64,000 bases of DNA from Clostridia bacterium (GTDB lineage: Bacteria; Bacillota; Clostridia; Oscillospirales; CAG-272), in the NCBI GenBank assembly GCA_017411605.1, contig JAFQPR010000090.1, positions 3,761 to 67,760 of the forward strand. Direction: 5' to 3'. Positions 14,927 through 35,221 of the stretch are shown here, in pieces (position 1 is the stretch's first letter; every line of letters starts with the position of its first letter). The position numbers were made by a program, and so were the translations under genes. Under the pieces are notes generated by a model. The model worked only from the letters and a program-made list of their open reading frames with translations. It was not told the DNA's origin and did not search any database.

Positions 14927-14959
14927 AGCGTCCCCCTATTTAAAATAATTGTTTACATT

Positions 14960-20316: not shown

Positions 20317-21270
20317 TTATCCATCTCCTTTGATCAAAGTAAGCTCGCCGCCGTCGAGCTGCCAGAATCTGTTGTCAAAATCCAGCTCAACAAAAATATT
20401 GTTCTCGTTAAACACCTTCGCCTTATCGCCCGACGGATAAAAGCTTTCGCCGTGATCCGCGGCAAAGAGCGTGTTCGATATAAGAACGTTGACGTTCGAG
20501 GTTTCTCCCTCTCCCACGTCGCAGAATCTTACCGCAGCAAGAGTTGCGTTTACTTTGTTACCGTTAAGCACCTCAAGCTTCGACGTGCAGTCAAAATCCT
20601 TATAGTCTGCGGTAACGACGGCGTTCTTTACTGTTCCGTAGTTATATACGCAGACCGCGCCCGTGAACACCTTATCCTCCGCAGCATCCTCGATACCGCG
20701 GTTTACGAACACGCCGTCGGCAACGATATTACTTATCTCACCGCGGTTTGTAGTAACGAAGGGCGAGAAGGTTCCCGTACGCGTAAGTCCCGTGCTGAAG
20801 CTTACCGTGCAGTTTGAAATGCTACCCTCGTTGCAGGTTGCAACGCCGCCGTAGCTTCGGGAGGATACGTCGAATTCACCGAAAACGAAGTTGACGTTCT
20901 TTATCACAGCACCCTCGGCTACCCTGCCGAAGAGCGAAAAGCCGTCAGCGCTTCCCGAGATATTTACGTACACGGTATGACCGTTTCCGTCAAAGCTGCC
21001 CTCGAATACTCTCTCAAGACCTCCAAGGCAGATATCCGGATCCGTAACCGTAACGTCACCCACAAGCACGCACTCGTCGTTGTAAAGCGAGTCCTTATGC
21101 CTTAAAAGCTCCTCACTGTCGCGTATCACAACCGATTCCTGCTTTTCAATGTAAAACGGAATAGTACTTGCCATCTTAACATACGCAAGCAAGACGGCGA
21201 GAGTGCACATTATTACCGAAAGCGTTATAAGACGCGCTCTGTTTTTGTTTAGTTTTATATGCTTTGCCAT
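20317..21270 (-). CDS. Membrane-anchored GLUG-repeat (beta-helix-like) extracytoplasmic protein
   Basis: N-terminal TM anchor LITLSVIMCTLAVLLAYV. FEGSFDGNGHTVYV followed by repeated G.(V/I).N motifs (LFGRVAEGAVIKNVNF, YGGVATCNEGSISNCTV, NRGEISNIVA, NYGTVKNAVV). ATG at 21270 lies 1 nt after the upstream stop, with GGTGGA as SD. The ORF-track alternative is GTG at 21279. Confidence 0.55.
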   Translation of the reverse strand: MAKHIKLNKNRARLITLSVIMCTLAVLLAYVKMASTIPFYIEKQESVVIRDSEELLRHKDSLYNDECVLVGDVTVTDPDICLGGLERVFEGSFDGNGHTVYVNISGSADGFSLFGRVAEGAVIKNVNFVFGEFDVSSRSYGGVATCNEGSISNCTVSFSTGLTRTGTFSPFVTTNRGEISNIVADGVFVNRGIEDAAEDKVFTGAVCVYNYGTVKNAVVTADYKDFDCTSKLEVLNGNKVNATLAAVRFCDVGEGETSNVNVLISNTLFAADHGESFYPSGDKAKVFNENNIFVELDFDNRFWQLDGGELTLIKGDG

Positions 21271-21271
21271 A

Positions 21272-23782: not shown

Positions 23783-25894
23783 TTAATTAATTACGCCAAA
23801 CTGCTTCAGCATCCATATAAACGGAAGCTCTATTCTCTGACCCGAGCAGCCGAATCTCTGCACACCGATATCGTCCTCGCTCTCTCCCACTCTGTGAATA
23901 CTGTCAAAGAAATTGAATGCGGCGATGCTGAAGAATTTAATGTTTTTGTATTTGTCAAGATTCGGCAAAAGTCCCTCGTTTATAAGATAAGACTTTATCT
24001 CCTCACTCGAATAATCTATAGAATGCTCAAGCCAGCTTCCCTCGTATCTCGAATAGGGATATGAGAGATAATCTGTTCGCAGACAATGGCAGTTAGAATC
24101 GAATTTATCTCTTAAAAGGTCCATTTTAGTAAGTATGACCGCAATGGGGCTCTCGGGATCAAGGCCTTCATTTTCCTTCGTTTTTATAGCGCTTTGTAAA
24201 GTTTCGGCTACATTTTTGAGTCCGTTGCCGTCTTTTTTACCGTTTACTATAAAGAATACGCCTATCGGAGCGCCGCCCGCGATCTTCTGCGTCATCTTCC
24301 ATTCGCTCTCGGCATTCTCACCCGCTATATCGTAGAAGGAAACGTAATTCTTACCGCCAACCTCAACGGTGAACGGAAGCTTTGTCAGAATATCCTTATC
24401 GGTGGTTGCGTTCGGGAACTTCTTTCCGACTATATCTATCGAGCGCTCGTCGTATTCCTTGCGATGCTCGGTCCAGTTCTGGTCCATCATCTTATAGCCG
24501 TGATCGTCGCTGACGAGTCTGTTTACAGAGGCAGCCTTAAGTCTGACCTTGAATTTATTCAAGCTGTTTTTGAGCATATCGCAACTCATAGAGCAGAGCT
24601 TTTTCTCACTAATAGCATCTCTGGACGAAGACATCGTTTCTTCAAGCGACGCGGTTTCGCTTATGATATCAAAGAATCTCGAGATATACGTGGTCTTACC
24701 CGAACGGGTAGAGCCTGTGAAAGCGATCTTAAAGCCCTCGTGCTCCAGGTAACCGAGTGGTAAGGTTCTCTCGAAGCTTTCTCGGAAGCCGATCTTCCCC
24801 GAATTGATTTTCAAATCATCCTGACAGTAAAGCGTGCGTTTAGCGAGCTTACCTGCGCTCGTATATATCTTGGGGTGCTGATTGAACTTAATATCAGACT
24901 CCTTACCCGCATCGTTACCCTGGCAGGAAATACCGCCGGAGAGATAATAGAAATGCTTTTTCACAAAGCTTTTAATAGGCTTATGGCAATAAGGACAGCT
25001 CAAAACCCTGGGATAAAGATAGGTAGATCTCGGAGGTATCCTTACCGATTCGTTTTTCATACTCTCGAGAAGGTAGAAGCGCTTCATAGGTTCATCCGTA
25101 AACGAAAGCGAGAACACCGCAGATGCGAGCTCGGGGTCATCGAGTCTGACAGTCGCCTCGGCAATGCCCTTTTTATTGAATATGAGCTCTATCGGATCTC
25201 CGATTCTGTTAAGAGCCGCATCTCCCGCAAGGCAAGGCAATCTGTCATTGTTGAAAACAAGATTAACGTAGATTCCAACGGGAGCATCCTTGCACTTTGC
25301 TTTTATATGTACGTTTTCACCCGATAGCTCGAGTGAGTAAAATATCTTTTTTCTGACTGTATAGTTTATCGCGAAGAAGAACTTGGCAACGAGATTCTTC
25401 TCTCTGCCCTCTCCCTTATAGTACTCGATAATTCCCGTTCCCGACTGATTGACAGCGCCCTTGTTTTCAAGAATGAAGCGGCATTTTTCCTGCCAATACT
25501 TCTCAAAGGTGATAACGGTTGTGGGCTTGAACTCGGCAACGCGGTAGGTATGCCCCTCGGCATCCGAAAGGCTCGCGCAATCTATACCCTTAACGTCAAA
25601 GGTATAAACGGCAGAGTCAAACGGAAGGGCGGAAAGGGCCTCTTTTTTGACCTCAAGGAAATCTCTTGCCGCAGCAACGGATTCTGCTCTTGACGTACTT
25701 TTATCTCCCTTGACCTTAAGGTAGATATCCGATTTTCCGTTCCATTCCTCGAAGGTCGAGAAAAGGCAATAAGTCATATTCTTATCGTAATAATCGCGTT
25801 CAAAATAGAGCTTGGGCGTAGCAATGCCGTCACTGCCAAAGACCTTTTCTATCTGATATTCAAAATAGTATTCTGCGGTCTGTACGTTACCCAT
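23783..25894 (-). CDS. P-loop GTPase (TRAFAC-type G1-G5 motifs in the C-terminal half) with a beta-rich N-terminal region and a CPYC zinc-ribbon-like element
   Basis: G1 FTGSTRSGKTT (about 24692-24718). G3 FYDIAGE. G4 ILTKMDL. G5 FSIAAF. SCPYCHKPI...GGISCQG lies upstream of the GTPase domain. I prefer ATG 25894 (AGGAGA, 6-nt spacing, overlapping the rSAM stop codon) to the ORF-track ATG 25918. Confidence 0.7.
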   Translation of the reverse strand: MGNVQTAEYYFEYQIEKVFGSDGIATPKLYFERDYYDKNMTYCLFSTFEEWNGKSDIYLKVKGDKSTSRAESVAAARDFLEVKKEALSALPFDSAVYTFDVKGIDCASLSDAEGHTYRVAEFKPTTVITFEKYWQEKCRFILENKGAVNQSGTGIIEYYKGEGREKNLVAKFFFAINYTVRKKIFYSLELSGENVHIKAKCKDAPVGIYVNLVFNNDRLPCLAGDAALNRIGDPIELIFNKKGIAEATVRLDDPELASAVFSLSFTDEPMKRFYLLESMKNESVRIPPRSTYLYPRVLSCPYCHKPIKSFVKKHFYYLSGGISCQGNDAGKESDIKFNQHPKIYTSAGKLAKRTLYCQDDLKINSGKIGFRESFERTLPLGYLEHEGFKIAFTGSTRSGKTTYISRFFDIISETASLEETMSSSRDAISEKKLCSMSCDMLKNSLNKFKVRLKAASVNRLVSDDHGYKMMDQNWTEHRKEYDERSIDIVGKKFPNATTDKDILTKLPFTVEVGGKNYVSFYDIAGENAESEWKMTQKIAGGAPIGVFFIVNGKKDGNGLKNVAETLQSAIKTKENEGLDPESPIAVILTKMDLLRDKFDSNCHCLRTDYLSYPYSRYEGSWLEHSIDYSSEEIKSYLINEGLLPNLDKYKNIKFFSIAAFNFFDSIHRVGESEDDIGVQRFGCSGQRIELPFIWMLKQFGVIN

Positions 25895-25904
25895 ATTATT
25901 TCTC

Positions 25905-26489
25905 CTATGTATTTTCATTAAAATTTCTGATATATTCCTTGGTGGGAATTCCTACGGAAAGAACGTAGCTGCCGAAATTAAAGGTCTGCACCTCTCTTTT
26001 ATCCGAAGCATAGTCCTCGTATCTTTTTCTGAAGCTCTCATCAAGGATATGTATTCTCTGATTTTTACTGCCTGCAAGATTCCCCGTGTCATCGTTTTGC
26101 TCAGCAATATACGGCCCGTCGATAAGCACCGCTATCATGCCGAGTATTGCGTCAACCGTCGGGTCACGCATTGCGGTAAGCTCCTCGAGAGTATATCCCG
26201 TATAAACGAGGATATCCCTTATTCCCTTATCACGAAGGAAGCTCACGAGCGATAAAAGCTCAGCCGCCTGATAAAAAGGCTCGCCACCCGATATCGAAAC
26301 ACCGTCGATATCATCGTACGCAAATGCCGAAAAGTACTCCGGAACATCACATTCGTTTTCGGGAGCTTCCCGCCTTAACGTCGGGGATATACATCCGGGG
26401 CAGTTTCTCGGGCAGCCGTTTACCCAGACTGCCATTCTGTTTCCCGGGCCTAGCGCTGTTATCCCCGTAAAGGTTCTTTCTATCTGCAT
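25905..26489 (-). CDS. NrdG-family radical-SAM glycyl-radical-enzyme-activase-like protein (194 aa)
   Basis: LGPGNRMAVWVNGCPRNCPGC (CxxxCxxC, about 26392-26418). DGVSISGGEPF. VYTGYTLEEL. VLIDGPYI...AGSKNQRIHIL. This is collinear with the E. coli NrdG motifs NGPG.R..L.V.GC...C.GC / SGGDP / WTGY / VDG.F...RGSSNQ. Confidence 0.8.
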   Translation of the reverse strand: MQIERTFTGITALGPGNRMAVWVNGCPRNCPGCISPTLRREAPENECDVPEYFSAFAYDDIDGVSISGGEPFYQAAELLSLVSFLRDKGIRDILVYTGYTLEELTAMRDPTVDAILGMIAVLIDGPYIAEQNDDTGNLAGSKNQRIHILDESFRKRYEDYASDKREVQTFNFGSYVLSVGIPTKEYIRNFNENT

Positions 26490-26495: not shown

Positions 26496-28466
26496 TTAGC
26501 CCTTCTTCGCCTTGTAACGGTTTCTGACGGCGGCTCTCGCTCTGTTTCCGCTCTTCTTTTCTTCGCCGACGTTGATAACTCTGCGCTTGAGCTTGAAGCT
26601 CTCTTCTCTCTCGTCCTTCTTTTCGCCGTCGGATACCTTTTCGGTGACCGCTACGTCTGCGCTTACCTCACCGATAACCGAAGCAATTCTGTCCTTAAGG
26701 CTCATCTCGGTGGCAGTGCCGTCCTCTGCCTCGACGGTAACCGTCCCCTCGAGCATAAGCGCTCCGTTTTCGGCAATCGCCTCGTCGCTGTACTCTGATT
26801 CCGCGTCAACGTAATCCTCACCGATAATAGCCGTTCCGTCACCCTTCTCGGCAATCTTATTCAAGAACTCGGCAACCTCACCCGTTACCTCCATCTCCAT
26901 AGCGGCGCGCTTTATCGTATCAACGCTTGTTATTTCATCGCCGTCGGTAATGCCTACCAAGGTACGTCTGACACCCCAGACGAGTCTTTCTTCTCCGTCC
27001 ATCCCGATAACAGACGCCTCGGCGCTTACCTTGCAAAGAACGCCTGCCATACCTGGCTTCGCGTAATACGCCTCGGGAGCGAGCTCATCGGAATTGTCCA
27101 CCTTAACAAGCTCGTAACCGAGCTCTGTCATTGCCTCGTCTGCCATTGCCATATTTATCGACGCATTGTTTGCCGCCTCTCTTATTCCCGCATCTATTTG
27201 CTTTTGGATAAGACGCGATATCTGCGTTCTGTCACCTCTCGCGAACGACTCCGCATCGAATACCTCGTCGGAAACGTCAACTCCGCGCGCCCGAAGGTCA
27301 GAAGTTCTCTCCTCGTATTCGGCATAATCCGACTCTATTACTCTGTCCTTTTCCTTCACGCTATTAAGCTCTTCAAGACTTCTCCTCAGCTTTTTGAGAG
27401 TAAGCTCGTCCTTGCAGCTTATGGCTTCGTCGGCAAGCCTTCTCATCTCCACTAAAACGTACTCGTCAGCGGTGGTATAAGGAGCATCCGTCAGCTCGTC
27501 TACCGTGTCCGCAAGAAGCTTACCGCTTTCCTCTATCTCGACCTCAAAGCTTACCGTTTCATAAGAGTTCTCCTCAACGAAGCTTTTTATCTCTCTGCAA
27601 GCCAGAAGCTGACCTTCCAGTCTTCTTGCTTCTGCTATGAGAGCGGCATCCTTGAGCTCTGCTATTTTACCGTTAACGAGCTCGACTGTGCTGTTTATGC
27701 GCTCGAGCATCTTATCTATATCTGAAAGCGAGGATACCTCGAAGGCTCTGATCTCCGAGATCATCGAACCGATAATATCGCGAAGCTCTGCGGGAATCGC
27801 TCTTAAGTTTATTCCGCCGATCGCGCTCCTTACTCTGTTGAGCGCCTCGGAAAGAATTCTCATCTCCTGCTCGACCTCCGCTCTTCTCACGGCTATTCTG
27901 CTGAAATCTCCTCTTTCGATATCAACCGAATTAAGTCTACGCTCTATATCAATATATTCCGCGGTCGTAAGACTCGGGGTTATTTCCTTACCTAATCCGT
28001 TTATTTTCTCAAGATTAGCCTCTGCCGCGGACCTTGCTCTGGCAACGGTTGAGGAATACTCACCGTTGACCTCGTCAACTTTTCTTCTGAGCTTAGCCGC
28101 ATTGAAGCCCTCGAACATAGACGGATTGAAAACCAGCGCGGGAGCTCCGCCTCGCTCGAAAACCGAAGAGAGCGCATCACCCGCATCGCGCTGCTTACGC
28201 TTGAATGCGGACTCAGCCCTTGACTTTGCGTTGAGCCTTTCCTGCTCAAGCATGAGCCTCATGCTTTCCTCATCTCTCTTATATCCTTCTATTCCATCTC
28301 TTATCTTGGCCTCCTCGGAAGCGTTCAGATAACCGTATCTATCCGCAATATTAAAGACCACGCGCCCGTCTATTTTACCGATAATGCGTCCTGCGATCTT
28401 GCTGACCTTAACCGACGGATCGTATTTTCTGGCTTCGTTTGCAACGTATTTATCAATAGAACTCAT
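26496..28466 (-). CDS. 656-aa coiled-coil-rich protein of unknown family with an acidic C-terminal region and a basic tail
   Basis: ORF track. GAGGATGA SD. Long heptad-like E/R/L/A-rich stretches. The tail reads KKSGNRARAAVRNRYKAKKG. No enzymatic motif recognised. Confidence 0.6.
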   Translation of the reverse strand: MSSIDKYVANEARKYDPSVKVSKIAGRIIGKIDGRVVFNIADRYGYLNASEEAKIRDGIEGYKRDEESMRLMLEQERLNAKSRAESAFKRKQRDAGDALSSVFERGGAPALVFNPSMFEGFNAAKLRRKVDEVNGEYSSTVARARSAAEANLEKINGLGKEITPSLTTAEYIDIERRLNSVDIERGDFSRIAVRRAEVEQEMRILSEALNRVRSAIGGINLRAIPAELRDIIGSMISEIRAFEVSSLSDIDKMLERINSTVELVNGKIAELKDAALIAEARRLEGQLLACREIKSFVEENSYETVSFEVEIEESGKLLADTVDELTDAPYTTADEYVLVEMRRLADEAISCKDELTLKKLRRSLEELNSVKEKDRVIESDYAEYEERTSDLRARGVDVSDEVFDAESFARGDRTQISRLIQKQIDAGIREAANNASINMAMADEAMTELGYELVKVDNSDELAPEAYYAKPGMAGVLCKVSAEASVIGMDGEERLVWGVRRTLVGITDGDEITSVDTIKRAAMEMEVTGEVAEFLNKIAEKGDGTAIIGEDYVDAESEYSDEAIAENGALMLEGTVTVEAEDGTATEMSLKDRIASVIGEVSADVAVTEKVSDGEKKDEREESFKLKRRVINVGEEKKSGNRARAAVRNRYKAKKG

Positions 28467-28486: not shown

Positions 28487-30733
28487 TCAACTGAATGTTT
28501 CGCTGAAAATTCTCTCCGCCTGATTGATCAGGGGATCGAGTCTTGAGCCTCTGCCGGCGGATAAATATTTCTTTAGGAAGTCATTATCCGAGAACAGCTC
28601 TATAACGGTATCGACGGGATATCTCGATATCAGCTCGTAAATATACTGACCTACGGATATCTCTCTGTTATCCATCATTATTTTCGCATCGCTGCCGAAG
28701 AGATCAAAGAACTCCCCTACGTCATCCTGAGAGGCTATCAGCTTAAGATATCTGTTAAGCTTCGTGCTCTCGCAGGAGCGTTTGTAGTAATCGAGTATTC
28801 CGCGGTCAAGCAGGCTCTTCAATAAATACGCGCGCGCTCTGGCTTCATTTTGGCGCTCGGGATCGTTATTTTCTCCGTATGCGTACTTACATATATCTCT
28901 TGTTAAGGTATGGAGAGTCGCGATAAGACCCGTACGTGATATCACGATACCGCCGATGCTCACGCCGGATGGCTCAAACACGTCGATATACTCGCGCAGC
29001 AGTGAAACGTAAAGGTTATAGGCTCTGAGAGCCTCGCTTGACGGAAGTCCGAGATACGAATAAATCAGCTCGCTTTCCGACGAGCCCGCCGCCTTATCCG
29101 ACAGGGTGAATCTATCCCCATCGGCGCGTCTTACGACTGTGTGATCCGAATTTATTCTATACGTTTCAAGCGCGCTTACCATACTGTCCATCCTCTCTAT
29201 GGACTGCAGCTTGCACATAGTCTTAACGAAATTCTCGGCAGAGCCGTAATTCGTTACCGAAATACCGGTACCCGTATAAGAAACCGAGGCAAGGCATCCC
29301 GTTATCTGCATATACACGGCGCTCATATCCTCAAGGAATCTCTTATCTGCGGAAACCACCGCTCCCGTCACGTCGAAGGTACCCGTTATATCCTCTATAT
29401 CAAGTCTTCCGAAGTAGTAAAGCACGGGGAGCTTGCAGCTTAAGTAAAAGCTTCTGAAAAGCTCGTTTATAGGCTTATCGCCGAAGAATTTTCTGACGAA
29501 ATCATCTCTGTTTTCAAACTTAGGCAAAATAGCTCCTCTGGTATCCTCTTCATCGCTGAAATAGAATCTTGTCCCGGGGTCATTTTTGTTTATGACCGCG
29601 CGGTATATCAGGAAGAACTTTATGCTCTTATCCATTTTTGCGTTACTCGAATAAGTAGTAGCAAGTATCTTACCGAGCAGCTCGTTGCTTTCCGCAAGAT
29701 TGAACGAGTCGAGCGTCTGCAGAAGGAGCCATTTGAATTCGGGTCGAAGCTCCCTTCTGCTCTTGAAGGCAAACGTCGTATTCCAATGGCTGAAAATATC
29801 GCCAATCGCGCGTTTTAGCGGCTTGCATACGATACCTCTCCGATAGGTTGCGGAATAGGTTTCGCCGCCTATCGAAATATAGGAATAACTGCTCTTCGTA
29901 ACTCCGCCGAGCGCGCCGCCGATGGAATCGCGGGCAGAGCTTGCGTGAGTATCTCTCACCGTCGGAGCCTCGGCGGCTTCAGCTCTTACCTCTCTTACGG
30001 GTGCGGGAGCGACAGCTCTTTCGGGAGCGCCGCGCATACCGTCCGATGCCGCAGCACCGACGCTCGGAGTATGCGAAGCAGAAGCGCGTGAGCGCTCCGT
30101 ACCGAGTCCGCCGATTCTGACTCCCGTACCGAGTCCGCTTGCCCACGCGGGTCTGCGAGGCTCTGCTGCAGAAGCAGACGGAGCCGACTCGGTAGTTGCC
30201 GCGCTTGCCGTGCGAGAGGGATATCCGCTCGCAGAAGATGCCGCGCCTACGGATGACGGCGCGCTTGCGGACTCTCCCGCGGACGTACCCCGTGTGGCTC
30301 TTTCGGGAGAAGGAGTCGTTCTGCTATGCGACGGTCTTGTGGGAGATGGGCTAACCGTGGCACGTGCTGACCTTTCGGACGAAGTGCTTGCCGCTCTGCC
30401 AATCGCAGCTCCCACCGTACCCTCGCGAGAGGGCGCAGCCGTTCCCGATGCAGGCGCTGCGGGTCGTGAGATAGGCGCATCGGTCACACTCGGTGCGGGC
30501 GATACCTCTACCCATACGCCGTCACGGTATTCGTAAGACGGTGCGCTTGCCCCTCTTACGGGCGTAGCTCTTTTGGGAACCGAGAACTCGCCTTTTTTTG
30601 CGCGGAGCTTACATATTTTTCTTTTCGGACAGTTTGACGGGCACTTTACCGTATTGCCCGGCTCTATTTTCTTGCCCGACGGAATATCCATAAGCAGACT
30701 CTGACCGTCGGAGCAGACCAATTTATATACCAT
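28487..30733 (-). CDS. 748-aa protein: short Cys-containing N-terminus, a ~215-aa Ser/Ala/Pro/Thr/Arg-rich disordered linker, and a ~470-aa C-terminal domain of unknown family
   Basis: AAGGTGG SD. TAATG overlap with the upstream gene. N-terminus MVYKLVCSDG...VKCPSNCPKRKIC. The low-complexity segment is encoded by the locally GC-rich patch at about 29908-30556. Confidence 0.6.
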   Translation of the reverse strand: MVYKLVCSDGQSLLMDIPSGKKIEPGNTVKCPSNCPKRKICKLRAKKGEFSVPKRATPVRGASAPSYEYRDGVWVEVSPAPSVTDAPISRPAAPASGTAAPSREGTVGAAIGRAASTSSERSARATVSPSPTRPSHSRTTPSPERATRGTSAGESASAPSSVGAASSASGYPSRTASAATTESAPSASAAEPRRPAWASGLGTGVRIGGLGTERSRASASHTPSVGAAASDGMRGAPERAVAPAPVREVRAEAAEAPTVRDTHASSARDSIGGALGGVTKSSYSYISIGGETYSATYRRGIVCKPLKRAIGDIFSHWNTTFAFKSRRELRPEFKWLLLQTLDSFNLAESNELLGKILATTYSSNAKMDKSIKFFLIYRAVINKNDPGTRFYFSDEEDTRGAILPKFENRDDFVRKFFGDKPINELFRSFYLSCKLPVLYYFGRLDIEDITGTFDVTGAVVSADKRFLEDMSAVYMQITGCLASVSYTGTGISVTNYGSAENFVKTMCKLQSIERMDSMVSALETYRINSDHTVVRRADGDRFTLSDKAAGSSESELIYSYLGLPSSEALRAYNLYVSLLREYIDVFEPSGVSIGGIVISRTGLIATLHTLTRDICKYAYGENNDPERQNEARARAYLLKSLLDRGILDYYKRSCESTKLNRYLKLIASQDDVGEFFDLFGSDAKIMMDNREISVGQYIYELISRYPVDTVIELFSDNDFLKKYLSAGRGSRLDPLINQAERIFSETFS

Positions 30734-31266
30734 TACGCGAGCCCACCTTTACTGTTTACTCTTACCTTGCCGGACAGAACGCCCTTGATTATATCCATTA
30801 GTGGCATATTCGCTATTCGGTCCGACATTTCGTAATTCATGGGAGCGATGCCGACTCTGTTAATGTTCATATAAAGTGCTCTTATGTACTTACGGTCCGT
30901 GATATTCGGCATACGGCTATGTCCCGAGAGCCACGTGAAGAATTCCTTTACGTTAGCATTCGACATAGCTCCGGGAGCTGCCCAACGCGTCATAGAATCG
31001 GTAGCGGGGCCTTTCGTTGAAGCGGCATCGAGCAGCTTTTTCAGGCATTCTGCTATAACTATTCGGTCAATAGCGGCGACAACCGAGGATAACCCCAGGT
31101 ATGCATTCGCTCCGTAGAACATCTCGAGCACGTCACCGTAAGAAGAGACGGCAGCCTCTCTTACGCAATTCTCGCATAAAATTCTCGAGCTTTCGACCTC
31201 GCCTTTCTCATAAAGCTTCTCTGCCAGATCGAGGCATCGCCTTTGCGTGTCATTAAAAATTGCCAT
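30733..31266 (-). CDS. 177-aa helical hypothetical protein
   Basis: ORF track. 4-nt gap to the AAA+ gene, and its stop overlaps the next ATG. Confidence 0.55.
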   Translation of the reverse strand: MAIFNDTQRRCLDLAEKLYEKGEVESSRILCENCVREAAVSSYGDVLEMFYGANAYLGLSSVVAAIDRIVIAECLKKLLDAASTKGPATDSMTRWAAPGAMSNANVKEFFTWLSGHSRMPNITDRKYIRALYMNINRVGIAPMNYEMSDRIANMPLMDIIKGVLSGKVRVNSKGGLA

Positions 31267-31270
31267 TCTT

Positions 31271-33850
31271 TTATACTATTCTCCATTCGATATCCTCGTG
31301 AGTTTCCACGATATCACGGCGAAGACTGCAAACCGCGGTCCTGCCCATAAGCATCTCGCTCGTAAGGCGCTCCTTATTATAAGTGAAGCGGTCGCTGCTT
31401 GTATGATCAACGAAGGTAACGCTTGATTCACGAACGTAAACCGTAAGAACGCGCTCTCCGCTGTCATTTTTAGCGAAGTAAGGCACTCCGTCAACCGTTT
31501 CCGCCTCGCTCGCGGCAGCAAGCTCATACTTCGCGCCGTTATAAGTTACGTGGGTAGGTGTTCCGTCGTATTTTACGGTAATAGCTCTTGACGCGCGGTC
31601 TACCTCATTCTCGCCGTCGTAAAGCACGACGTCGCCGCGCTTGTATCTCGCGAGCTCAACGGAAAGGCTCGTCGTAAAGAGCTTACCCGTCGTTTTTATG
31701 ATACCTCTTGCTCCGAGAGCTCTTATATTCATATTCTGGCAGTGAGCGGAAATGGCGCTATGCACCGCGTCCGACCACTCAATGTTAAGTCCGTACATAT
31801 CCTTTGCGGATGTAATTACGCCCTTCATCTTGCTTTTTGCTATCTTCGGTACTGCGGAGGCGCTGATATAGTTATAGTAAACGAGCGCATCCTCAACTCG
31901 TCCGTAAAGCTCGGGACGCTTAAGACCGCAATGGAAGAACGCCTTAACGTTATATCTTAAGTGCTTCTTGACCTCGGCGTATATCTCTGCCTCGGCCTCC
32001 TCGGTAAGATCTCCGTTTGCCTTTACCTTGCCCTCGGCGCGTTTTTCCTCCTCAAGCCTGATAACGACGTCCATATTCATCTCGCCCTCGGGCGGCTCCT
32101 CGTTGTTCATAAGGCTTGCGATCTCTGCCCTTGAAAGCTCTTCTCCGTTTTCCTTGGTGAACTTATTTACGCCCGCGTTAGAGGTGATAACTATAATAGA
32201 ATCGCTGAAGCGAACGGTTTCACCCTTACCGTCGGTAAGACGTCCGTCACCGAGTATCTGTAAGAACTTATCAAGTATCGACTTATGCGCCTTCTCTATC
32301 TCGTCAAAGAGTATCAGTGAGAAGGGCTCCTTCTTTATCGCGTTTGTGAGCTTACCGCCCGCCTCGTGTCCAACGTATCCTGGAGGGGCGCCGAAGAGCT
32401 TCTGATCCGACTCATCCTGACCGAACTCCGACATATCGAAGCGCACTATCCTCTCCTCGCTTCCGAAGATATTCTCCGCAAGCTGCTTACAAAGCTCGGT
32501 CTTACCCGTACCCGTAGGTCCTGCAAGGAATAGGACAACTCGGGGCGCGTTCGGATTTTCAACTCTGTCAAGACCGAGAGAGGCTCTCGTAAGGATTTCC
32601 TGAACTGCATCAAGCGCGCTGTCCTGACCCTGGATCTTTTTCTTGACCTCGTTGGTCACGCCGAGCATCTGTCTAACTCTTTCCTCATCATCCCAGGGGT
32701 TGGTAAGATCTCCGTGCTGGAATTCCGATACGGCGAAGCCTATCTTTGCGGGATCGGATATCGGATGCTCTGCAATATATTCACCGAAGCGGATCATAGC
32801 CTTCATGCTAAGATCGTTCGTGTATGCCAAAAACTGCTTTTCCGCCTTGTTTTTTCCGTCGGCGGAAACGTTACCTCTGATAGCCTCGTACTTCTCGAAG
32901 AATTCGTCGGTGAAGCCCTCACCGTCCTCTATCGCATCTCTGAAGAACTGAAGCTTCTGCTCCTCGGAGGGCTTTGAGATATTGATAACCTTAACGTGGG
33001 GGTTTTCGGTTTCGTCAACGAACCACTTCGGAAGGTCGCTCGCGTTGTTTGCGAGAATTACCATTTTATGCTCGCTGGTCGAGCTCTCGCATTCGTCAAG
33101 CGACTGACATATGTTAAGAAGCTGTCTGAAGAGAATTATATCGTCCTCACCGAGAGTCGTATACTCGCTTCTACCGTCGTTCGATAGAAGCTGAGAGGTC
33201 ATCTTTATGACGAAGATATATCCGCTGGGCTCGCTCTCGGCATAAAACTCCGAGCTGTCCCCCTCACCCGAGAGAGCATCCGCGATACCGCTCATTATTC
33301 TGTATATCTGCCCCTTAAGCGAATCGTCAAGACGCTCCGAGTTCTCGGAGATAGCGAGATGTATCTTAGCTATATCGAGAGTAGTTCCCTCACTTCTGTG
33401 GTCTATAAGAACGTTCCCTATTCTGTCATTTCTCAAAATATCCCAGAACTTCTGCGAGATAGGAGAATTATATCTGCGGTTCTTATCGACGTAGAGCATC
33501 GCGCCCTCTTCGTTCTCCTCATCGCAGGATGAGCCGCTGCCCGTTTCGGGAGCATCACCGCCCTCATCGGTGCTTTCGATCGGAACGAAATCGTCATCAT
33601 ATATTTTGAATTTAAGATCTGCGGACTCGGAAGGATCGTAAACGATCACTCTCTTTCTCTTCGCCTGATTCTCGTGAACCGAATAAACGCGATCAAGATA
33701 ATCGCAGATTCCGCAATAGCTGACCTCTCCGTCACCGTTCACAAAGGGGTGAGCGTCATCTATGAAGCCTTCAAGCACGAAGGTATTGTATACCGAAAAA
33801 TACGAACCGAAGTCCTTTTGCCATTTTGCTCTCTGTACGTTTTCTGACAT
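31271..33850 (-). CDS. Hsp100/ClpB D2-type AAA+ ATPase with a Walker-A-less N-terminal half and an extra C-terminal beta-rich domain (859 aa)
   Basis: IQGQDSALDAV...VVLFLAGPTGTGKTELCKQLAE (Walker A, about 32498-32524). RFDMSEF. LFGAPPGYVGHEAGGKLTNAIKKEPFSLILFDEIEKAH (Walker B). GDGRLTDGKGETVRFSDSIIVITSNAG. RPELYGRVEDALVYYNYI. This is near-collinear with the ClpB D2 consensus. No P-loop seen in aa 1-420. Confidence 0.8.
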   Translation of the reverse strand: MSENVQRAKWQKDFGSYFSVYNTFVLEGFIDDAHPFVNGDGEVSYCGICDYLDRVYSVHENQAKRKRVIVYDPSESADLKFKIYDDDFVPIESTDEGGDAPETGSGSSCDEENEEGAMLYVDKNRRYNSPISQKFWDILRNDRIGNVLIDHRSEGTTLDIAKIHLAISENSERLDDSLKGQIYRIMSGIADALSGEGDSSEFYAESEPSGYIFVIKMTSQLLSNDGRSEYTTLGEDDIILFRQLLNICQSLDECESSTSEHKMVILANNASDLPKWFVDETENPHVKVINISKPSEEQKLQFFRDAIEDGEGFTDEFFEKYEAIRGNVSADGKNKAEKQFLAYTNDLSMKAMIRFGEYIAEHPISDPAKIGFAVSEFQHGDLTNPWDDEERVRQMLGVTNEVKKKIQGQDSALDAVQEILTRASLGLDRVENPNAPRVVLFLAGPTGTGKTELCKQLAENIFGSEERIVRFDMSEFGQDESDQKLFGAPPGYVGHEAGGKLTNAIKKEPFSLILFDEIEKAHKSILDKFLQILGDGRLTDGKGETVRFSDSIIVITSNAGVNKFTKENGEELSRAEIASLMNNEEPPEGEMNMDVVIRLEEEKRAEGKVKANGDLTEEAEAEIYAEVKKHLRYNVKAFFHCGLKRPELYGRVEDALVYYNYISASAVPKIAKSKMKGVITSAKDMYGLNIEWSDAVHSAISAHCQNMNIRALGARGIIKTTGKLFTTSLSVELARYKRGDVVLYDGENEVDRASRAITVKYDGTPTHVTYNGAKYELAAASEAETVDGVPYFAKNDSGERVLTVYVRESSVTFVDHTSSDRFTYNKERLTSEMLMGRTAVCSLRRDIVETHEDIEWRIV

Positions 33851-33869
33851 TTTTATTCTCCTATATCTC

Positions 33870-34925
33870 TTAGTTTTTAATTACCATACCGTTAAAGAAG
33901 CCGTGATCAACGTTTCCCGAAAGACTCGCTCCGCGAGGCAGAGCCGAGCTTATAATATCTCTCGCCCATTTCCAGAGCTCTCCGTCATCCAGCAGCGTTC
34001 CCTTGTAGCGGAATCTCAGAACATATTTTTGCGCCCTCGTATCAAATCCGAGAAGATAGCTTCTCAGATCGTTGAGGTTTTTAAACACGATATTCCGCTT
34101 TGAGTGATAGCTCTGCGACTCGTCGTTGCAATCGAACTCTCTCTCGAACGTATAGAACAGCTCCGCCGTCCTCGTTGTCGCGAGGAACATATCGTAGTTA
34201 TACATAATTAAGTCCTCGTGGAAGATACCCTTGGTGGTATCAACGAACGAGCATACCCCGTCTATCTCTATTATATTGAGCATATGCTCGCAGCCGTTAT
34301 CGTCGTTCGACCTTGCCTCGACGCAGATGCAAGGAATACCAAACTCCTCGCAGAGCAGCTTATACGCCTTTGAAAGACCCATACACACAGCCTTTTTATC
34401 AACGAAAACACCGACAGCGGTAAAGGCGTTACTGTTATCTCTCAGCATCTCTATCTCGCGTTGCTGCTTTCTCTCGCGATCCGCCTCGGTATTCTCGGGC
34501 ATCGACGCGACCGCGATATACTCCTCGAATACGTCGAAATCGTACTTAACGTTTTTCGAAAGATATTCGTATATAGTCTTTGCGGTCTTATATGCGCTCG
34601 TACCGAGCGGACATTTTCGCTCAATTAAACGAATGACCTCGTTCATTTTCTCTCTGCAAAGAGCTTCGTCGCACTCGGAATACTTCATATCGACCGAGGT
34701 GCTGTGCCCGTCCGAGGTGAATCTTGCGAAAAGTCCCGGGTAATAAAACGTACCCGGCGTATCGAGCACGTAGGCGTGCCACGCGCGCATCGTAGCCTCT
34801 ATATCTCCGTGAAAGACCGTGCATTGCCCTCTGTTCTGCGCGGCGGCGGAAATTGAATAATATGCCCCCCGCTCGTTCTCGGAGGTAAGCTCGTCAAAAT
34901 AAAAATTCGGGCTGTAAATTCTCAT
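33870..34925 (-). CDS. Transglutaminase-like (Cys-His-Asp papain-fold) protein; first gene of the operon
   Basis: KKAVCMGLSKAYKLLCEEFGIPCICVEA (Cys). CEHMLNIIEIDGVCSFVDTT, with the same 15-residue His-to-Asp spacing as the canonical HAWNEVYIDGKWYPVDAT. AGGTGA SD. No signal peptide. Confidence 0.7.
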   Translation of the reverse strand: MRIYSPNFYFDELTSENERGAYYSISAAAQNRGQCTVFHGDIEATMRAWHAYVLDTPGTFYYPGLFARFTSDGHSTSVDMKYSECDEALCREKMNEVIRLIERKCPLGTSAYKTAKTIYEYLSKNVKYDFDVFEEYIAVASMPENTEADRERKQQREIEMLRDNSNAFTAVGVFVDKKAVCMGLSKAYKLLCEEFGIPCICVEARSNDDNGCEHMLNIIEIDGVCSFVDTTKGIFHEDLIMYNYDMFLATTRTAELFYTFEREFDCNDESQSYHSKRNIVFKNLNDLRSYLLGFDTRAQKYVLRFRYKGTLLDDGELWKWARDIISSALPRGASLSGNVDHGFFNGMVIKN

Positions 34926-34980
34926 ATTTCACCTGCTTTACCGAAATCTTATTTAAAAGATTTTATAAATATACACAATA

Positions 34981-35009
34981 ATTATTGCATAAGTGGATTT
35001 GCTTGTCAA
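34981..35009 (-). promoter_or_regulatory. Candidate sigma70-type promoter of the 15-gene operon
   Basis: Minus strand reads TTGACA (35004-35009), a 17-nt spacer, then AATAAT (34981-34986), about 55 nt upstream of ATG 34925. Confidence 0.55.
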
Positions 35010-35171
35010 CAAAAATTAAACAAAAACTGCCAATAAATACTTTTTTCTATCTTTTGATAGAAAAATCGGTCGGTTTATTGTGCAAGTTTTCCTAAGCAGA
35101 AACAAGAGGATTCGGTTTACATATAAAACCCACAGCAGCAAGCAAAAAGAATTCAATAACAAATCAAAAAA

Positions 35172-35221
35172 CAAAAAAAGAGCAAGCGCGAGAAGGTTTT
35201 TACGCCTTGCATGCTTGCTCT
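35172..35221 (-). terminator. Intrinsic terminator of the permease gene
   Basis: Minus strand reads AGAGCAAGC, a 25-nt loop with an inner AAGG/CCTT pairing, GCTTGCTCT, then a T-run. Begins 26 nt after the stop at 35247. Confidence 0.6.

What the first reader, a model, noticed from the sequence alone, without database searches (positions are those of the whole stretch)
31271..34925. Cytosolic transglutaminase-like peptidase core followed by a single-ring-type Hsp100-D2 AAA+ with a dead N-terminal half
The first two genes pair a papain-fold Cys-His-Asp domain with an 859-aa ATPase.
- The peptidase core reads AVCMGLS...HMLNIIEIDGVCSFVDTT and keeps the canonical His-to-Asp spacing.
- The only intact nucleotide site of the ATPase is almost motif-identical to ClpB/ClpA D2 (GPTGTGKTE, FDMSEF, PPGYVG, LILFDEIEKAH, GRLTDG, ITSNAG).
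- The ATPase lacks the Clp N-domain, the M-domain and a D1 P-loop.
- It has an acidic insertion after sensor-1 and an extra ~130-aa beta-rich C-terminal domain.

This looks like an unfoldase/peptidase pair analogous to Clp unfoldase-protease logic, but built with a different protease fold.
Basis: partly seen in the sequence, partly recalled or inferred. Interest (0 to 1): 0.65.

Follow-up and report, generated by a model that had tools for sequence, protein, structure and literature searches.

The report
Transglutaminase-like enzyme plus half-dead Hsp100 ATPase
The two genes are real and always occur together, but they are the first two genes of a conserved, uncharacterised operon of at least nine genes whose most constant partnership is between the ATPase and a small radical-SAM enzyme, so a Clp-like protease machine is not the best reading.

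Summary
On the minus strand lie a 351-aa cytosolic transglutaminase-fold protein with invariant Cys181, His214 and Asp229, and an 859-aa AAA+ protein. Only the AAA+ protein's C-terminal module is a ClpB/ClpC-D2-type ATPase.

Corrections to the finding:
- The N-terminal half is predicted to be a degenerate D1-like AAA+ tier, so the protein is not single-ring.
- Most of the "extra C-terminal domain" is an 88-aa insertion found only in this genome.

The pair is adjacent in every related locus examined, down to 31% ATPase identity. It always heads the same operon: TGase, AAA+, a small protein, a zinc-ribbon protein, a coiled-coil "EMGY" protein, an NrdG-like radical-SAM enzyme, a zinc-ribbon GTPase, a GAP1-like membrane protein and a further small protein.

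The GTPase and GAP1 pair weakly matches the DO-GTPase/GAP1 "GTPase-centric conflict systems" of Kaur et al. 2020.

A wider ATPase family (more than 500 genomes, several phyla, plasmids) lacks the TGase. It usually keeps the radical-SAM gene, and adds a kinase, an FHA protein and a PP2C phosphatase, sometimes with helicase or nuclease genes nearby.

Best reading: an accessory thiol enzyme and a threading motor within a new variant of an NTPase-centred conflict system. The Clp analogy is only partly supported.

The parts
34981..35009 (-). Promoter-like site (TTGACA, 17 nt, TG-AATAAT) 56 nt upstream of the TGase start codon
   Evidence: an 11/12 match with an extended -10 TG, the best-scoring site in 20000-35400. 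This is a consensus match only. The region as a whole has no excess of such sites.
33870..34925 (-). [quoted passage not shown]
   Evidence: Pfam Transglut_core scores 21.3 bits, just under the cut-off of 23. The orthologue in L101 passes PF01841. AF2 gives pLDDT 95.7. Foldseek finds 9crn (TglA) at E 2.8e-17 and TM 0.71, then TGases and Cys proteases. C181, H214, N217 and D229 are invariant in 53 sequences. There is no N-terminal hydrophobic segment.
32675..33850 (-). g02 N-terminal half (aa 1-392): conserved pseudo-ATPase tier, predicted to be D1-like, with no P-loop or Walker B
   Evidence: Family-wide conserved residues include W10, G28, D32, P274, W276, N283 and P294. AF2 topology is b1 23-28, b2 66-71, b3 210-216, b4 262-267, b5 286-291 plus a 4-helix lid. 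Foldseek alignments of 570-770 columns fall on D1+D2 Clp chains of about 580 residues. There is no sequence-level similarity to D2 (hhalign E 0.67), to PDB chains or to Pfam families.
31625..32674 (-). g02 D2 module (aa 393-742): intact Hsp100 D2-type AAA+ with a GYVG pore loop, plus an acidic insertion after sensor-1 (aa 559-644)
   Evidence: Walker A K450, Walker B D516/E517, sensor-1 N558, R651 and the GAR motif with R715 are all invariant in 22 sequences.
31355..31618 (-). g02 aa 745-832: beta-rich 88-aa insertion specific to this lineage
   Evidence: Absent from all 21 aligned homologues. pLDDT is 50-79. The only other tblastn matches are weak, the best at E 0.02 to the 1412-aa surface protein in the window.
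30733..31266 (-). g03: 177-aa helical protein, conserved in position, no recognised domain
   Evidence: cluster c15. It starts 4 nt after the AAA+ stop codon.
28487..30733 (-). g04: 748 aa, with an N-terminal Cys-rich zinc-ribbon-like motif, a low-complexity linker and a roughly 450-aa domain of unknown fold
   Evidence: Alignment A5 has C7, C31, P32 and C35 invariant. There are no Pfam or PDB sequence hits.
26496..28466 (-). g05: 656-aa coiled-coil protein with a conserved '(M/L)GY' motif, homologous to the coiled-coil protein of the wider kinase/FHA/PP2C cassettes
   Evidence: hhalign A3 against A4 gives probability 97.3% and E 2e-11 over 211 columns. A local re-run reproduced this.
25905..26489 (-). 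g06: 194-aa NrdG-like radical-SAM enzyme (CX3CX2C at aa 26, GGEP motif)
   Evidence: Pfam Fer4_12 at 7e-30. NCBIfam NrdG scores 88.9 bits, below the cut-off of 126. Homologues at 36-60% identity lie next to the AAA+ gene in 45 of the 70 loci where an AAA+ gene was called.
23783..25918 (-). g07: 711-aa zinc-ribbon plus TRAFAC GTPase (GSTRSGKT 402, DIAGE 530, TKMD 597), DO-GTPase-like
   Evidence: Pfam run on the orthologues gives DO-GTPase2 at 1e-4, DO-GTPase1 at 2.4e-3 and MMR_HSR1, all below gathering thresholds.
21272..23770 (-). g08: 832-aa GAP1-like protein with C-terminal transmembrane helices
   Evidence: Pfam GAP1-M is hit by 2 of 9 orthologues at 1.7e-4. A precomputed PF20014 hit (weak) exists on the L101 orthologue. 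The gene lies directly downstream of the GTPase, as Kaur et al. 2020 describe for GAP1.
20317..21279 (-). g09: 320-aa protein with an N-terminal membrane anchor, the last member conserved across related loci
   Evidence: tblastn hits of 25-39% identity at the same relative position in 10 related loci.
9797..20314 (-). g10-g15: the same tightly packed gene string (1784-aa Flg_new repeat protein, DUF2225, 441 aa, 109 aa, TrwB/VirD4-like ATPase, 503-aa membrane protein). Whether these belong to the system is unresolved
   Evidence: Gene gaps range from -7 to +33 nt. Related loci end before this region, so conservation could not be tested.

Best explanation
The two genes are the leading pair of a conserved operon of at least nine genes. 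That operon is a new variant of the NTPase-centred, multi-component conflict systems predicted by comparative genomics.

Shown here:
- The ATPase is a two-tier Hsp100-like protein. Its D1 tier has lost all nucleotide-binding motifs. Its D2 tier keeps every catalytic residue and the GYVG pore loop.
- It therefore has what is needed to form a ring that threads polypeptide using D2 alone.
- The TGase-like protein is a cytosolic Cys-His-Asp enzyme that always accompanies this operon type.

Inferred:
- The ATPase remodels or unfolds a protein component of the system. Candidates are the coiled-coil EMGY protein or another operon product. It would do this together with the NrdG-like radical-SAM enzyme, its most frequent neighbour across phyla.
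- The zinc-ribbon GTPase and the membrane-anchored GAP1-like protein would act as the sensor and switch.
- In this clade the TGase would fill the regulatory or processing role that kinase, FHA and PP2C fill in the wider family. It would cleave, deamidate or cross-link a system component, possibly one made accessible by the ATPase.
- The TGase is not expected to act as a bulk degradation chamber.
For: Pair and operon conservation:
- TGase orthologues lie directly upstream of the ATPase in every close-type locus with enough upstream sequence: L001-L013, L086, L087, L090, L101 and L102. ATPase identity in these loci runs from 56% down to 31%.
- The downstream gene order is the same in all of them.
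- All gene gaps in the window are between -14 and +33 nt.

TGase:
- AF2 pLDDT 95.7 and a full-length Foldseek match to 9crn.
- The triad is invariant in 53 sequences.
- Cys181 sits at a helix N-terminus, His214 lies in a strand and Asp229 follows the next strand.

ATPase:
- The D2 motifs are invariant.
- Foldseek aligns 570-770 columns to D1+D2 Clp chains.

Wider family:
- More than 500 relatives occur among species-representative genomes.
- The radical-SAM gene is adjacent in 45 of 70 loci, kinase in 33, FHA in 33, the EMGY protein in 29, PP2C in 27 and DUF4236 in 21 (Pfam).
- g05 is homologous to the EMGY family.
- The cassette occurs on plasmids next to PIN, DUF4011-helicase, ArdA and integrase genes. 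It also occurs next to Shedu SduA_C and endonuclease genes and HamA.

GTPase and GAP1:
- Weak but mutually consistent Pfam hits to DO-GTPase1/2 and GAP1-M.
- The features match Kaur et al. 2020 (PMC7159879): a zinc-ribbon GTPase with Glu in Walker B (DIAGE), GAP1 encoded downstream, C-terminal TM helices and occurrence in Firmicutes.
- That paper also reports chaperone (Hsp70/GrpE) and kinase/PP2C themes for GAP1-N2 systems, and rare TGase-like thiol peptidases in its vWA-MoxR (VMAP) ternary systems.
Against: - No obvious toxic effector, such as a nuclease or pore-former, is recognisable in the window's operon.
- PADLOC matches only the generic AAA_2 core (PDC-M37B, DolB) plus weak generic NTPase-domain hits (mad8, LeoC, HerA) on three proteins. 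The TGase and the radical-SAM enzyme match nothing.
- Flanks of the close-type operon are mostly housekeeping genes such as RecG, TrmO, TldD and an amino-acid permease.
- The DO-GTPase and GAP1 hits are below Pfam gathering thresholds and are seen in only a minority of orthologues.
- The conflict role of GTPase-centric systems is itself only a computational prediction.
- No physical link between the TGase and the ATPase was tested.
- The Moellerella cassette's 381-aa protein is not detectably EMGY-like, so the three-part core is not universal.
- The D1 assignment rests on a model with mean pLDDT 77 and on whole-chain Foldseek alignments with rmsd above 20 A. Sequence methods see nothing.
Confidence: 0.5

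Rival explanations
1. One reading: a Clp-like unfoldase-peptidase machine. The D2 ring unfolds substrates and passes them directly to the TGase-fold cysteine peptidase, which degrades them. The other operon genes would be substrates or adaptors.
For: - The two genes show strict adjacency and co-conservation, with a 19-nt gap.
- The catalytic triad is intact, and so are the pore loop and ATPase site.
- The family-wide insertion after sensor-1 lies where, to my knowledge, ClpA, ClpC and ClpX carry their ClpP-docking loop. It could therefore be a docking element.
- PNGase with p97 is a known precedent for a TGase-fold enzyme working with an AAA+ unfoldase (from general knowledge).
Against: - The ATPase family exists in hundreds of genomes without any TGase, and the post-sensor-1 insertion is kept there too. 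The insertion is therefore more likely to serve a universal partner.
- There is no IGF/IGL-type tripeptide.
- The TGase's relatives are stand-alone proteins, with no sign of ring-forming architecture. The AF2 model is a compact three-part monomer with pTM 0.93.
- One orthologue has Ser in place of the nucleophile Cys.
Confidence: 0.15
2. A radical protein-modification machine. The NrdG-like radical-SAM enzyme modifies a protein, for example by installing a glycyl radical or another radical-derived mark at the conserved (M/L)GY motif of the EMGY coiled-coil protein. The Hsp100-like motor unfolds or presents the target. The TGase then processes or cross-links the modified product.
For: - The ATPase and radical-SAM genes are the most frequently adjacent pair across Firmicutes, Proteobacteria, Bacteroidota and plasmids.
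- The best family match for the radical-SAM enzyme is NrdG, a protein-directed activase. It has an intact CX3CX2C motif.
- No glycyl-radical enzyme is present in the operon.
- The Gly in the GY motif is invariant in both EMGY families, and the Tyr is nearly invariant in the wider one.
Against: - The motif lacks the R-V-x-G-[FYW] context typical of glycyl-radical enzymes.
- The Cys that is invariant in the wider EMGY family (C366) is not conserved in g05.
- Some carriers are aerobes, such as Rhizobium, Brevibacillus and Geminocystis.
- The NrdG score is below the equivalog cut-off.
- No EMGY protein is detectable in the Moellerella cassette.
Confidence: 0.15
3. A housekeeping envelope or surface-assembly apparatus rather than a conflict system. 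The cytosolic motor, the GTPase, the membrane proteins and the TrwB/VirD4-like ATPase would export or assemble the large Flg_new-repeat surface protein. The TGase would process or cross-link it.
For: - A single tightly packed 15-gene string includes a 1784-aa secreted repeat protein, a coupling-protein-like ATPase and several membrane proteins.
- One variant of the wider cassette has an FtsK/SpoIIIE (EssC-like) ATPase upstream.
- Flanks of the close-type operon are housekeeping genes.
Against: - The TGase has no signal peptide.
- Conservation of g10-g15 with the system could not be shown.
- The wider ATPase/radical-SAM cassette travels on plasmids with PIN, helicase-nuclease, Shedu and ArdA genes, which fits conflict better than envelope assembly.
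- The operon sits at different chromosomal positions in different genomes.
Confidence: 0.15

Closest known systems
ClpB/ClpC/ClpA/ClpE (class I Hsp100 AAA+ unfoldases)
   Same: - The D2 module is 45-50% identical over about 170 residues. It has Walker A and B, the GYVG pore loop, sensor-1, the RPExxxR arginine-finger motif and the GAR sensor-2 motif.
- The predicted overall layout is two AAA+-like tiers, collinear with D1+D2.
   Different: - It has no Clp N-domain and no M-domain coiled coil.
- The D1 tier has no P-loop or Walker B and no detectable sequence similarity to any AAA+.
- It carries a roughly 50-aa acidic insertion after sensor-1 and has no ClpP-docking tripeptide.
- It scores far below all NCBIfam Clp equivalog cut-offs.
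Human CLPB/Skd3, and AAA+ proteins with an inactive D1 tier such as Pex1/Pex6 (from general knowledge, not tested here)
   Same: A single active Hsp100-D2-type or D2 ATPase ring does the work, preceded by a non-catalytic N-terminal region or a degenerate D1 tier.
   Different: - Skd3's N-terminal region is made of ankyrin repeats, not an AAA-like tier.
- Pex1 and Pex6 belong to a different AAA clade.
- Neither is operon-linked to a TGase or a radical-SAM enzyme.
Streptococcus pyogenes TglA (PDB 9crn) and the large bacterial family of three-part transglutaminase-like proteins
   Same: - The same full-length architecture: an N-terminal helical domain, the TGase core and a C-terminal domain. Foldseek gives TM 0.71 and E 2.8e-17; phmmer gives 4e-6 with Cys, His and Asp aligned.
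- 33,355 representative proteins match the profile.
   Different: - Identity to 9crn is only about 16%.
- Many of the more distant full-length relatives carry a 40-100-residue N-terminal extension, and P0124 has a hydrophobic leader. The roughly 45 orthologues of this protein start directly at the domain, so they are predicted to be cytosolic.
- I found no paper on the function of TglA.
DO-GTPase/GAP1 'GTPase-centric' conflict systems, GAP1-N2 type (Kaur, Burroughs, Iyer, Aravind 2020, eLife 9:e52696)
   Same: - A zinc-ribbon TRAFAC GTPase with Glu in Walker B is followed by a GAP1-like protein with C-terminal TM helices.
- It occurs in Firmicutes.
- It is accompanied by chaperone-type ATPases and, in the wider ATPase family, by kinase and PP2C, as that paper describes for other GAP1-N2 themes.
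   Different: - No FNIII-repeat component was recognised.
- The partner chaperone is an Hsp100-like AAA+ protein, not Hsp70/GrpE.
- The TGase, the NrdG-like radical-SAM enzyme and the EMGY protein are not mentioned for these systems in the main text.
- The Pfam hits are below gathering thresholds.
ClpV with the Fha/PpkA/PppA threonine-phosphorylation pathway of type VI secretion (from general knowledge)
   Same: An Hsp100-family ATPase in an operon with FHA, Ser/Thr kinase and PP2C, which is the wider-family cassette. NCBIfam ClpV1 is the second-best D2 match.
   Different: - No sheath, baseplate or Hcp/VgrG genes are present.
- D1 is dead.
- A radical-SAM gene is present.
- The window's own operon has no kinase, FHA or PP2C.
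Dodola DolB and PADLOC candidate PDC-M37B
   Same: ClpB-like AAA_2 cores placed in predicted or validated defence systems. PADLOC E-values are 3e-28 and 3e-20.
   Different: - The matches cover only the generic ATPase core (aa 394-584).
- No DolA or PDC-M37A partner was detected among the ten operon proteins scanned.

Membership tests
Transglutaminase-like / papain-fold thiol peptidase superfamily (Pfam PF01841 clan) | Nucleophile Cys at the N-terminus of a helix, with His and Asp on or next to the following beta-strands | tested here: met
   C181 starts helix 181-194, H214 lies in strand 213-221 and D229 follows strand 224-228 in a model with pLDDT 95.7. All three are invariant in 53 sequences and align with the triad of 9crn.
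Transglutaminase-like / papain-fold thiol peptidase superfamily (Pfam PF01841 clan) | Profile match at the curated threshold | tested here: inconclusive
   The window protein scores 21.3 bits against a cut-off of 23. The orthologue in L101 and the homologue P0124 carry PF01841. Foldseek hits to TGases and Cys proteases have probability 0.99-1.00.
Class I Hsp100 (ClpA/ClpB/ClpC) | Two active AAA+ modules, with Walker A and B in both D1 and D2 | tested here: not met
   Only one P-loop (aa 444-451) and one Walker B (aa 514-519) are present. The D1 positions read FVLEGFIDD and FVIKMTS.
Class I Hsp100 (ClpA/ClpB/ClpC) | Clp N-domain, and an M-domain coiled coil in ClpB and ClpC | tested here: not met
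   There is no Clp_N hit at E up to 0.1. The AF2 model has no long coiled coil inserted in the D1 lid.
Class I Hsp100 (ClpA/ClpB/ClpC) | D2 AAA_2 module with the GYVG pore loop, sensor-1, arginine finger and sensor-2 | tested here: met
   AAA_2 at 5e-42. PDB ClpE, ClpB and ClpC at 1e-49 to 1e-45. The motifs are invariant in 22 sequences.
Class I Hsp100 (ClpA/ClpB/ClpC) | Orthology by curated equivalog score | tested here: not met
   ClpB scores 210 against 1232, ClpV1 191 against 885 and ClpA 179 against 993.
Clp-type chaperone-protease pair | A self-compartmentalising ring peptidase that docks on the ATPase through an [ILV]G[FL] loop | tested here: not met
   There is no such tripeptide in aa 559-644 (read from the sequence). 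The TGase model is a compact monomer whose relatives are stand-alone proteins. The actual oligomeric state and binding are not testable with these tools.
DO-GTPase/GAP1 GTPase-centric systems (Kaur et al. 2020) | TRAFAC GTPase with a conserved Glu in Walker B, often with N-terminal zinc ribbons | tested here: met
   GSTRSGKT, DIAGE and TKMD motifs are present. C308, C311, C332 and C365 are invariant. Weak Pfam hits to DO-GTPase1/2 were found in one orthologue each.
DO-GTPase/GAP1 GTPase-centric systems (Kaur et al. 2020) | GAP1 protein (GAP1-N, -M and -C domains) encoded downstream of the GTPase | tested here: inconclusive
   GAP1-M is hit by 2 of 9 orthologues at 1.7e-4, and by a precomputed weak hit in L101. 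The window protein itself has no hit. GAP1-N and GAP1-C were not detected.
DO-GTPase/GAP1 GTPase-centric systems (Kaur et al. 2020) | FNIII-repeat component (GAP1-N2 type) or GASH-domain component (GAP1-N1 type) | tested here: not met
   No FNIII hit was found in any operon protein. A Flg_new-repeat protein (g10) lies downstream, but its membership in the system is unproven.
NrdG-type glycyl-radical-enzyme activase | CX3CX2C cluster motif and a SAM-binding GGEP motif in a small protein of about 150-200 aa | tested here: met
   CPRNCPGC at aa 26, the GGEP motif (read directly in the translation) and Fer4_12 at 7e-30.
NrdG-type glycyl-radical-enzyme activase | A cognate glycyl-radical enzyme (NrdD, PFL-like) as partner, and an equivalog-level score | tested here: not met
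   No glycyl-radical enzyme domain is present in the operon. The TIGR02491 score is 88.9 against a cut-off of 126.1.
Dodola (DolA+DolB) / PDC-M37 | A partner protein (DolA/DUF6414 or PDC-M37A) next to the ClpB-like ATPase | tested here: not met
   PADLOC hits only the AAA core of g02 and finds no partner among the ten operon proteins scanned.

The most novel reading that the evidence does not exclude
The Hsp100-like ATPase with a dead D1 tier and the NrdG-like radical-SAM enzyme together form a previously unrecognised protein-directed radical machine. In it, an AAA+ motor unfolds or presents a dedicated coiled-coil protein (conserved (M/L)GY motif) to an activase-type radical-SAM enzyme. The resulting radical or modified protein would be the active principle of a widespread, horizontally mobile immunity module. 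That module would be gated by kinase, FHA and PP2C in most lineages, and by a cytosolic transglutaminase-fold enzyme plus a DO-GTPase/GAP1 switch in this one.
Probability: 0.12. Interest if true: 0.9.

Novelty: new variant of a known kind. Interest (0 to 1): 0.6.

Why it matters
- **A recurrent but unnamed module.** An Hsp100-type threading motor with a pseudo-ATPase first tier is tied to a tiny activase-like radical-SAM enzyme in hundreds of genomes across phyla and on plasmids. I found no description of it in the papers I could search.
- **A new use for activase-type enzymes.** If the ATPase and the radical-SAM enzyme act on a protein together, this would be a new role for that enzyme type outside glycyl-radical metabolism.
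- **A new theme for GTPase-centric systems.** It would add a new chaperone theme to the computationally predicted GTPase-centric conflict systems, none of which, to my knowledge, has been tested experimentally.
- **A tractable route to function.** The cytosolic TGase-fold enzyme models with very high confidence and is strictly co-inherited with the operon. Catalytic-Cys and Walker-B trap mutants should identify its substrate.
- **Experimental access.** Cultured carriers of the wider cassette exist: Aristaeella lactis, Clostridium drakei, Succinimonas amylolytica, Brevibacillus dissolubilis and Moellerella plasmids.

Tried and rejected
- **N-half against D2.** hhalign of the ATPase N-half against its own D2 found no similarity (E 0.67). 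A 16-sequence N-half profile against PDB sequences found nothing. The D1 assignment therefore rests on predicted structure only.
- **Other operon proteins.** PDB profile searches for g04, g07, g08 and the EMGY family gave nothing beyond P-loop, zinc-ribbon or coiled-coil noise. Pfam on the g04 and EMGY orthologue sets found no meaningful family.
- **Shared components.** Local hhalign of every close-type cluster against every wider-family cluster found only the g05-EMGY link.
- **Moellerella cassette.** Its 381-aa protein is not EMGY-like.
- **TGase homologue searches.** The word-indexed search returned only 4-5 TGase homologues even with a profile. The exhaustive representative search was needed.
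- **Mobile elements.** The window N-half has no match in plasmids or phages. Only 4 family relatives occur in 2.9 million viral contigs, so a phage origin is rejected.
- **Literature.** Searches for a description of the cassette, for DUF4236 in defence and for S. pyogenes TglA found nothing relevant.
- **Ordinary ClpB/ClpC and Dodola/PDC-M37.** Both were considered and rejected on the membership tests.

Full report
**1. What is at the coordinates**

The finding covers two minus-strand ORFs: 33870..34925 (351 aa) and 31271..33850 (859 aa), 19 nt apart. A promoter-like site (TTGACA, 17 nt, TG-AATAAT; 11/12 match) lies just upstream of the first gene. The gene upstream of that is an ordinary amino-acid permease.

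**2. The transglutaminase-like protein**

Sequence evidence:
- Pfam Transglut_core scores just under its cut-off (21.3 against 23 bits).
- PDB chain 9crn matches at 4e-6, with Cys, His and Asp aligned.
- An exhaustive profile search finds 33,355 representative proteins at E up to 1e-3 and 574 at E up to 1e-30.
- About 45 of these are full-length orthologues of 337-360 aa that start directly at the domain. Many more distant full-length relatives carry 40-100 extra N-terminal residues.

Conservation:
- In a 53-sequence alignment C181, H214, N217 and D229 are invariant.
- One locus-derived orthologue (L008) has Ser at the nucleophile position.

Structure:
- AlphaFold2 gives pLDDT 95.7 and pTM 0.93. 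Cys181 opens a helix, His214 lies in a strand and Asp229 follows the next strand.
- Foldseek's best hit is S. pyogenes TglA (9crn) over the whole length (E 2.8e-17, TM 0.71). It is followed by a TGase (4xz7), a putative cysteine protease (3isr), TgpA, the CPR-C4 protease, PeiP and arylamine N-acetyltransferases.

The fold and the triad are therefore confirmed. The N-terminus has no hydrophobic leader, so the protein is predicted to be cytosolic. I found no paper on the function of TglA.

**3. The ATPase**

D2 module:
- Only aa 438-583 match AAA_2 (5e-42).
- ClpE, ClpB and ClpC D2 match aa ~390-575 at 1e-49 to 1e-45.
- All curated Clp, ClpV, ClpK and ClpG models are missed by wide margins.
- More than 110 homologue clusters at 41-56% identity exist in Clostridia-type gut and rumen MAGs.
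- In a 22-sequence alignment the Walker A Lys, Walker B Asp-Glu, the GYVG pore loop, the sensor-1 Asn, RPExxGR and the GAR motif are all invariant.

N-terminal half (aa 1-392):
- It is equally conserved across the family but has no P-loop or Walker B.
- It has no detectable sequence similarity to D2 (hhalign E 0.67), to any PDB chain or to any Pfam family.
- The AF2 model (mean pLDDT 77.3) gives it a five-strand beta-alpha-beta core followed by a four-helix lid.
- Foldseek aligns 570-770 columns of the model to ClpC, ClpC1, ClpB and ClpA chains of about 580 residues that contain D1+D2 (E about 1e-24). That length is only possible if the N-half is laid on D1.
- I therefore read it as a pseudo-ATPase D1 tier. 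This is likely but not proven, because it rests on predicted structure only.

Other features:
- The segment after sensor-1 (aa 559-644; 19 D/E, 13 K/R) is a family-wide but variable insertion. From my knowledge of ClpA and ClpX, it lies at the position of their ClpP-docking loop. It contains no IGF-type tripeptide.
- Residues 745-832 are an insertion unique to this genome. The family has no real extra C-terminal domain.

**4. Co-occurrence and the operon**

Neighbourhoods were obtained three ways:
- through ATPase homologues;
- through a scan of one genome per species;
- in the reverse direction, through TGase homologues.

All show the same order: TGase (~340 aa), ATPase (~750), a small protein (~110-210), a protein of ~550-635 aa, a coiled-coil protein of ~630-700 aa, a radical-SAM enzyme (~190-200), a GTPase of ~655-725 aa, a protein of ~785-870 aa and a further protein of 320 aa or more. 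This holds from 56% down to 31% ATPase identity, and the TGase is adjacent in every case with enough upstream sequence. In the window the string continues through 15 genes with gaps of -14 to +33 nt. Conservation of genes 10-15 could not be checked.

**5. The wider ATPase family**

The genome scan found more than 500 relatives. The next tier has 31-36% identity and is about 625 aa long. It keeps the same dead N-domain signature (KW.reL.iF...iiEGNIlD) and occurs in these groups:
- Lachnospiraceae;
- Ruminococcus;
- Brevibacillus dissolubilis;
- Clostridium drakei;
- Succinimonas amylolytica;
- Muribaculaceae.

Clustering of neighbours in 85 loci gave these counts among the 70 loci where an ATPase gene was called (Pfam):

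| Neighbour | Loci |
|---|---|
| NrdG-like radical-SAM enzyme | 45 |
| Ser/Thr kinase | 33 |
| Double-zinc-ribbon FHA protein | 33 |
| Coiled-coil "EMGY" protein | 29 |
| PP2C phosphatase | 27 |
| DUF4236 protein | 21 |
| Upf1-like helicase with a restriction-endonuclease-like domain | 7 |

- None of these wider-family loci has a TGase.
- The window's g05 is homologous to the EMGY family (hhalign 97.3%, E 2e-11). It was the only additional shared component found.
- The same N-domain occurs on 18 plasmids.
  - On an Aristaeella lactis plasmid the order is DUF4011 helicase, kinase, hypothetical, FHA, 4Fe-4S protein, AAA, PP2C.
  - On Moellerella conjugative plasmids the order is a large AAA-domain protein, a PIN protein, a hypothetical, the AAA+ protein and the 4Fe-4S protein, near ArdA, a PD-(D/E)XK nuclease and an integrase.
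- Other neighbours include Shedu SduA_C and an NS-type endonuclease, HamA and an FtsK/SpoIIIE ATPase.
- The family is nearly absent from viral contigs and absent from the phage collection.

**6. The GTPase and its partner**

- g07 has G1, DxxGE and TKxD motifs and invariant zinc-ribbon cysteines. Its orthologues weakly hit Pfam DO-GTPase2, DO-GTPase1 and generic GTPase families.
- g08 has C-terminal TM helices. Its orthologues hit GAP1-M.
- These features match the "GTPase-centric systems" of Kaur et al. 2020: a TRAFAC GTPase with Glu in Walker B and N-terminal zinc ribbons, GAP1 encoded downstream, C-terminal TM helices in the GAP1-N2 type, and occurrence in Firmicutes.
- That paper also describes recurrent association with Hsp70/GrpE or with kinase/PP2C.
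- Its main text mentions no Clp-like ATPase, activase-type radical-SAM enzyme or TGase for these systems.
- The hits are below gathering thresholds, so this assignment is probable rather than firm.

**7. How it most likely works**

Shown here:
- a cytosolic Cys-His-Asp enzyme;
- an Hsp100-like protein with one competent, pore-loop-bearing ATPase tier;
- strict co-inheritance of both within a fixed operon of at least nine genes;
- a cross-phylum association of the ATPase with a small radical-SAM enzyme.

Inferred:
- The ATPase ring threads or remodels a protein of the system, together with the radical-SAM enzyme.
- The GTPase/GAP1 pair senses and switches.
- The TGase is a lineage-specific processing or modifying enzyme. 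It occupies the regulatory niche that kinase, FHA and PP2C hold elsewhere.

I put this at about 0.5.

Rivals:
- The Clp-like degradative pair (0.15) is weakened by the TGase's absence from most of the ATPase family, by the lack of a docking motif and by the TGase's stand-alone relatives.
- A radical protein-modification machine (0.15) is attractive but has no direct support.
- A surface-assembly role (0.15) fits the downstream genes but not the plasmid and nuclease contexts.

**8. Comparison and novelty**

- The ATPase works like an Hsp100 D2 motor but fails the membership tests for ClpA, ClpB, ClpC and ClpV.
- The TGase is a member of the transglutaminase-like superfamily and of the TglA-type three-part family.
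- The operon is best filed as a new variant of NTPase-centred conflict systems. Its ATPase/radical-SAM core appears to be undescribed within the limits of the library I could search.
- Interest is moderate to high because of this wider context. The Clp analogy that prompted the finding adds little to it.

Noticed in passing
window 21272-25918 (-): A zinc-ribbon TRAFAC GTPase (GSTRSGKT, DIAGE, TKMD) is followed by an 832-aa protein with C-terminal TM helices. Their orthologues weakly hit Pfam DO-GTPase1/2 and GAP1-M, which is the pair defining the GTPase-centric conflict systems of Kaur et al. 2020.
   Followed up: partly
window 25905-26489 (-); L061, L068, L092, L093: A 194-aa NrdG-like radical-SAM enzyme has no glycyl-radical enzyme nearby. 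Its homologues sit next to the dead-D1 ATPase in 45 of 70 loci across several phyla and on plasmids, usually with kinase, FHA and PP2C genes.
   Followed up: partly
window 9797-14926 (-): The same tightly packed gene string continues with a DUF2225 zinc-ribbon protein, two unknown proteins, a TrwB/VirD4-type coupling-protein-like ATPase with no N-terminal membrane anchor, and a 503-aa protein with a C-terminal TM segment. No other conjugation genes were seen.
   Followed up: no
window 14960-20314 (-): A 1784-aa secreted protein with 13 Flg_new (Listeria-Bacteroides) repeats and a Gly-rich C-terminus sits 2 nt downstream of g09. It could be the variable repeat component of the system, or it could be unrelated.
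   Followed up: no
window 31355-31618 (-), ATPase aa 745-832: An 88-aa beta-rich in-frame insertion is present only in this genome's ATPase and is absent from a 78%-identical homologue. It has marginal similarity (E 0.02) to the 1412-aa surface protein at 40297-40482.
   Followed up: partly
L008 2690-3724: One TGase orthologue has Ser in place of the otherwise invariant nucleophile Cys (KKGVSAGIS). This could be a real serine variant, an inactive copy or an assembly error.
   Followed up: no
window 28487-30733 (-), about aa 50-290 of g04: A long Ala/Ser/Pro/Arg-rich low-complexity linker makes this copy about 140 aa longer than its orthologues. It coincides with the local GC maximum (0.537 in 30001-32000).
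   Followed up: no
window 37180-41418 and 41529-43388 (-): Two adjacent lipoprotein-like proteins (1412 and 619 aa) have histidine- and cysteine-rich N-terminal regions. In the 1412-aa protein the unit 'H.H.YVDGKCECGA.DP.YV.P' is repeated in tandem. It looks like a metal-binding or disulfide-rich module of unknown type.
   Followed up: no
L057, L071, L074, L083: A variant cassette has the order FtsK/SpoIIIE-family ATPase (1185 aa), small proteins, radical-SAM enzyme, kinase, a 360-aa protein, FHA and the dead-D1 ATPase. It is reminiscent of EssC/FHA arrangements in type VII secretion.
   Followed up: no
L031, L041, L042: A variant lacks the radical-SAM gene. Here the ATPase is followed by a 220-aa protein that clustered with the DUF4236 proteins (no Pfam hit of its own), and is flanked by an SNF2 helicase, a CotH/lamin-tail protein and a P-type ATPase.
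   Followed up: no
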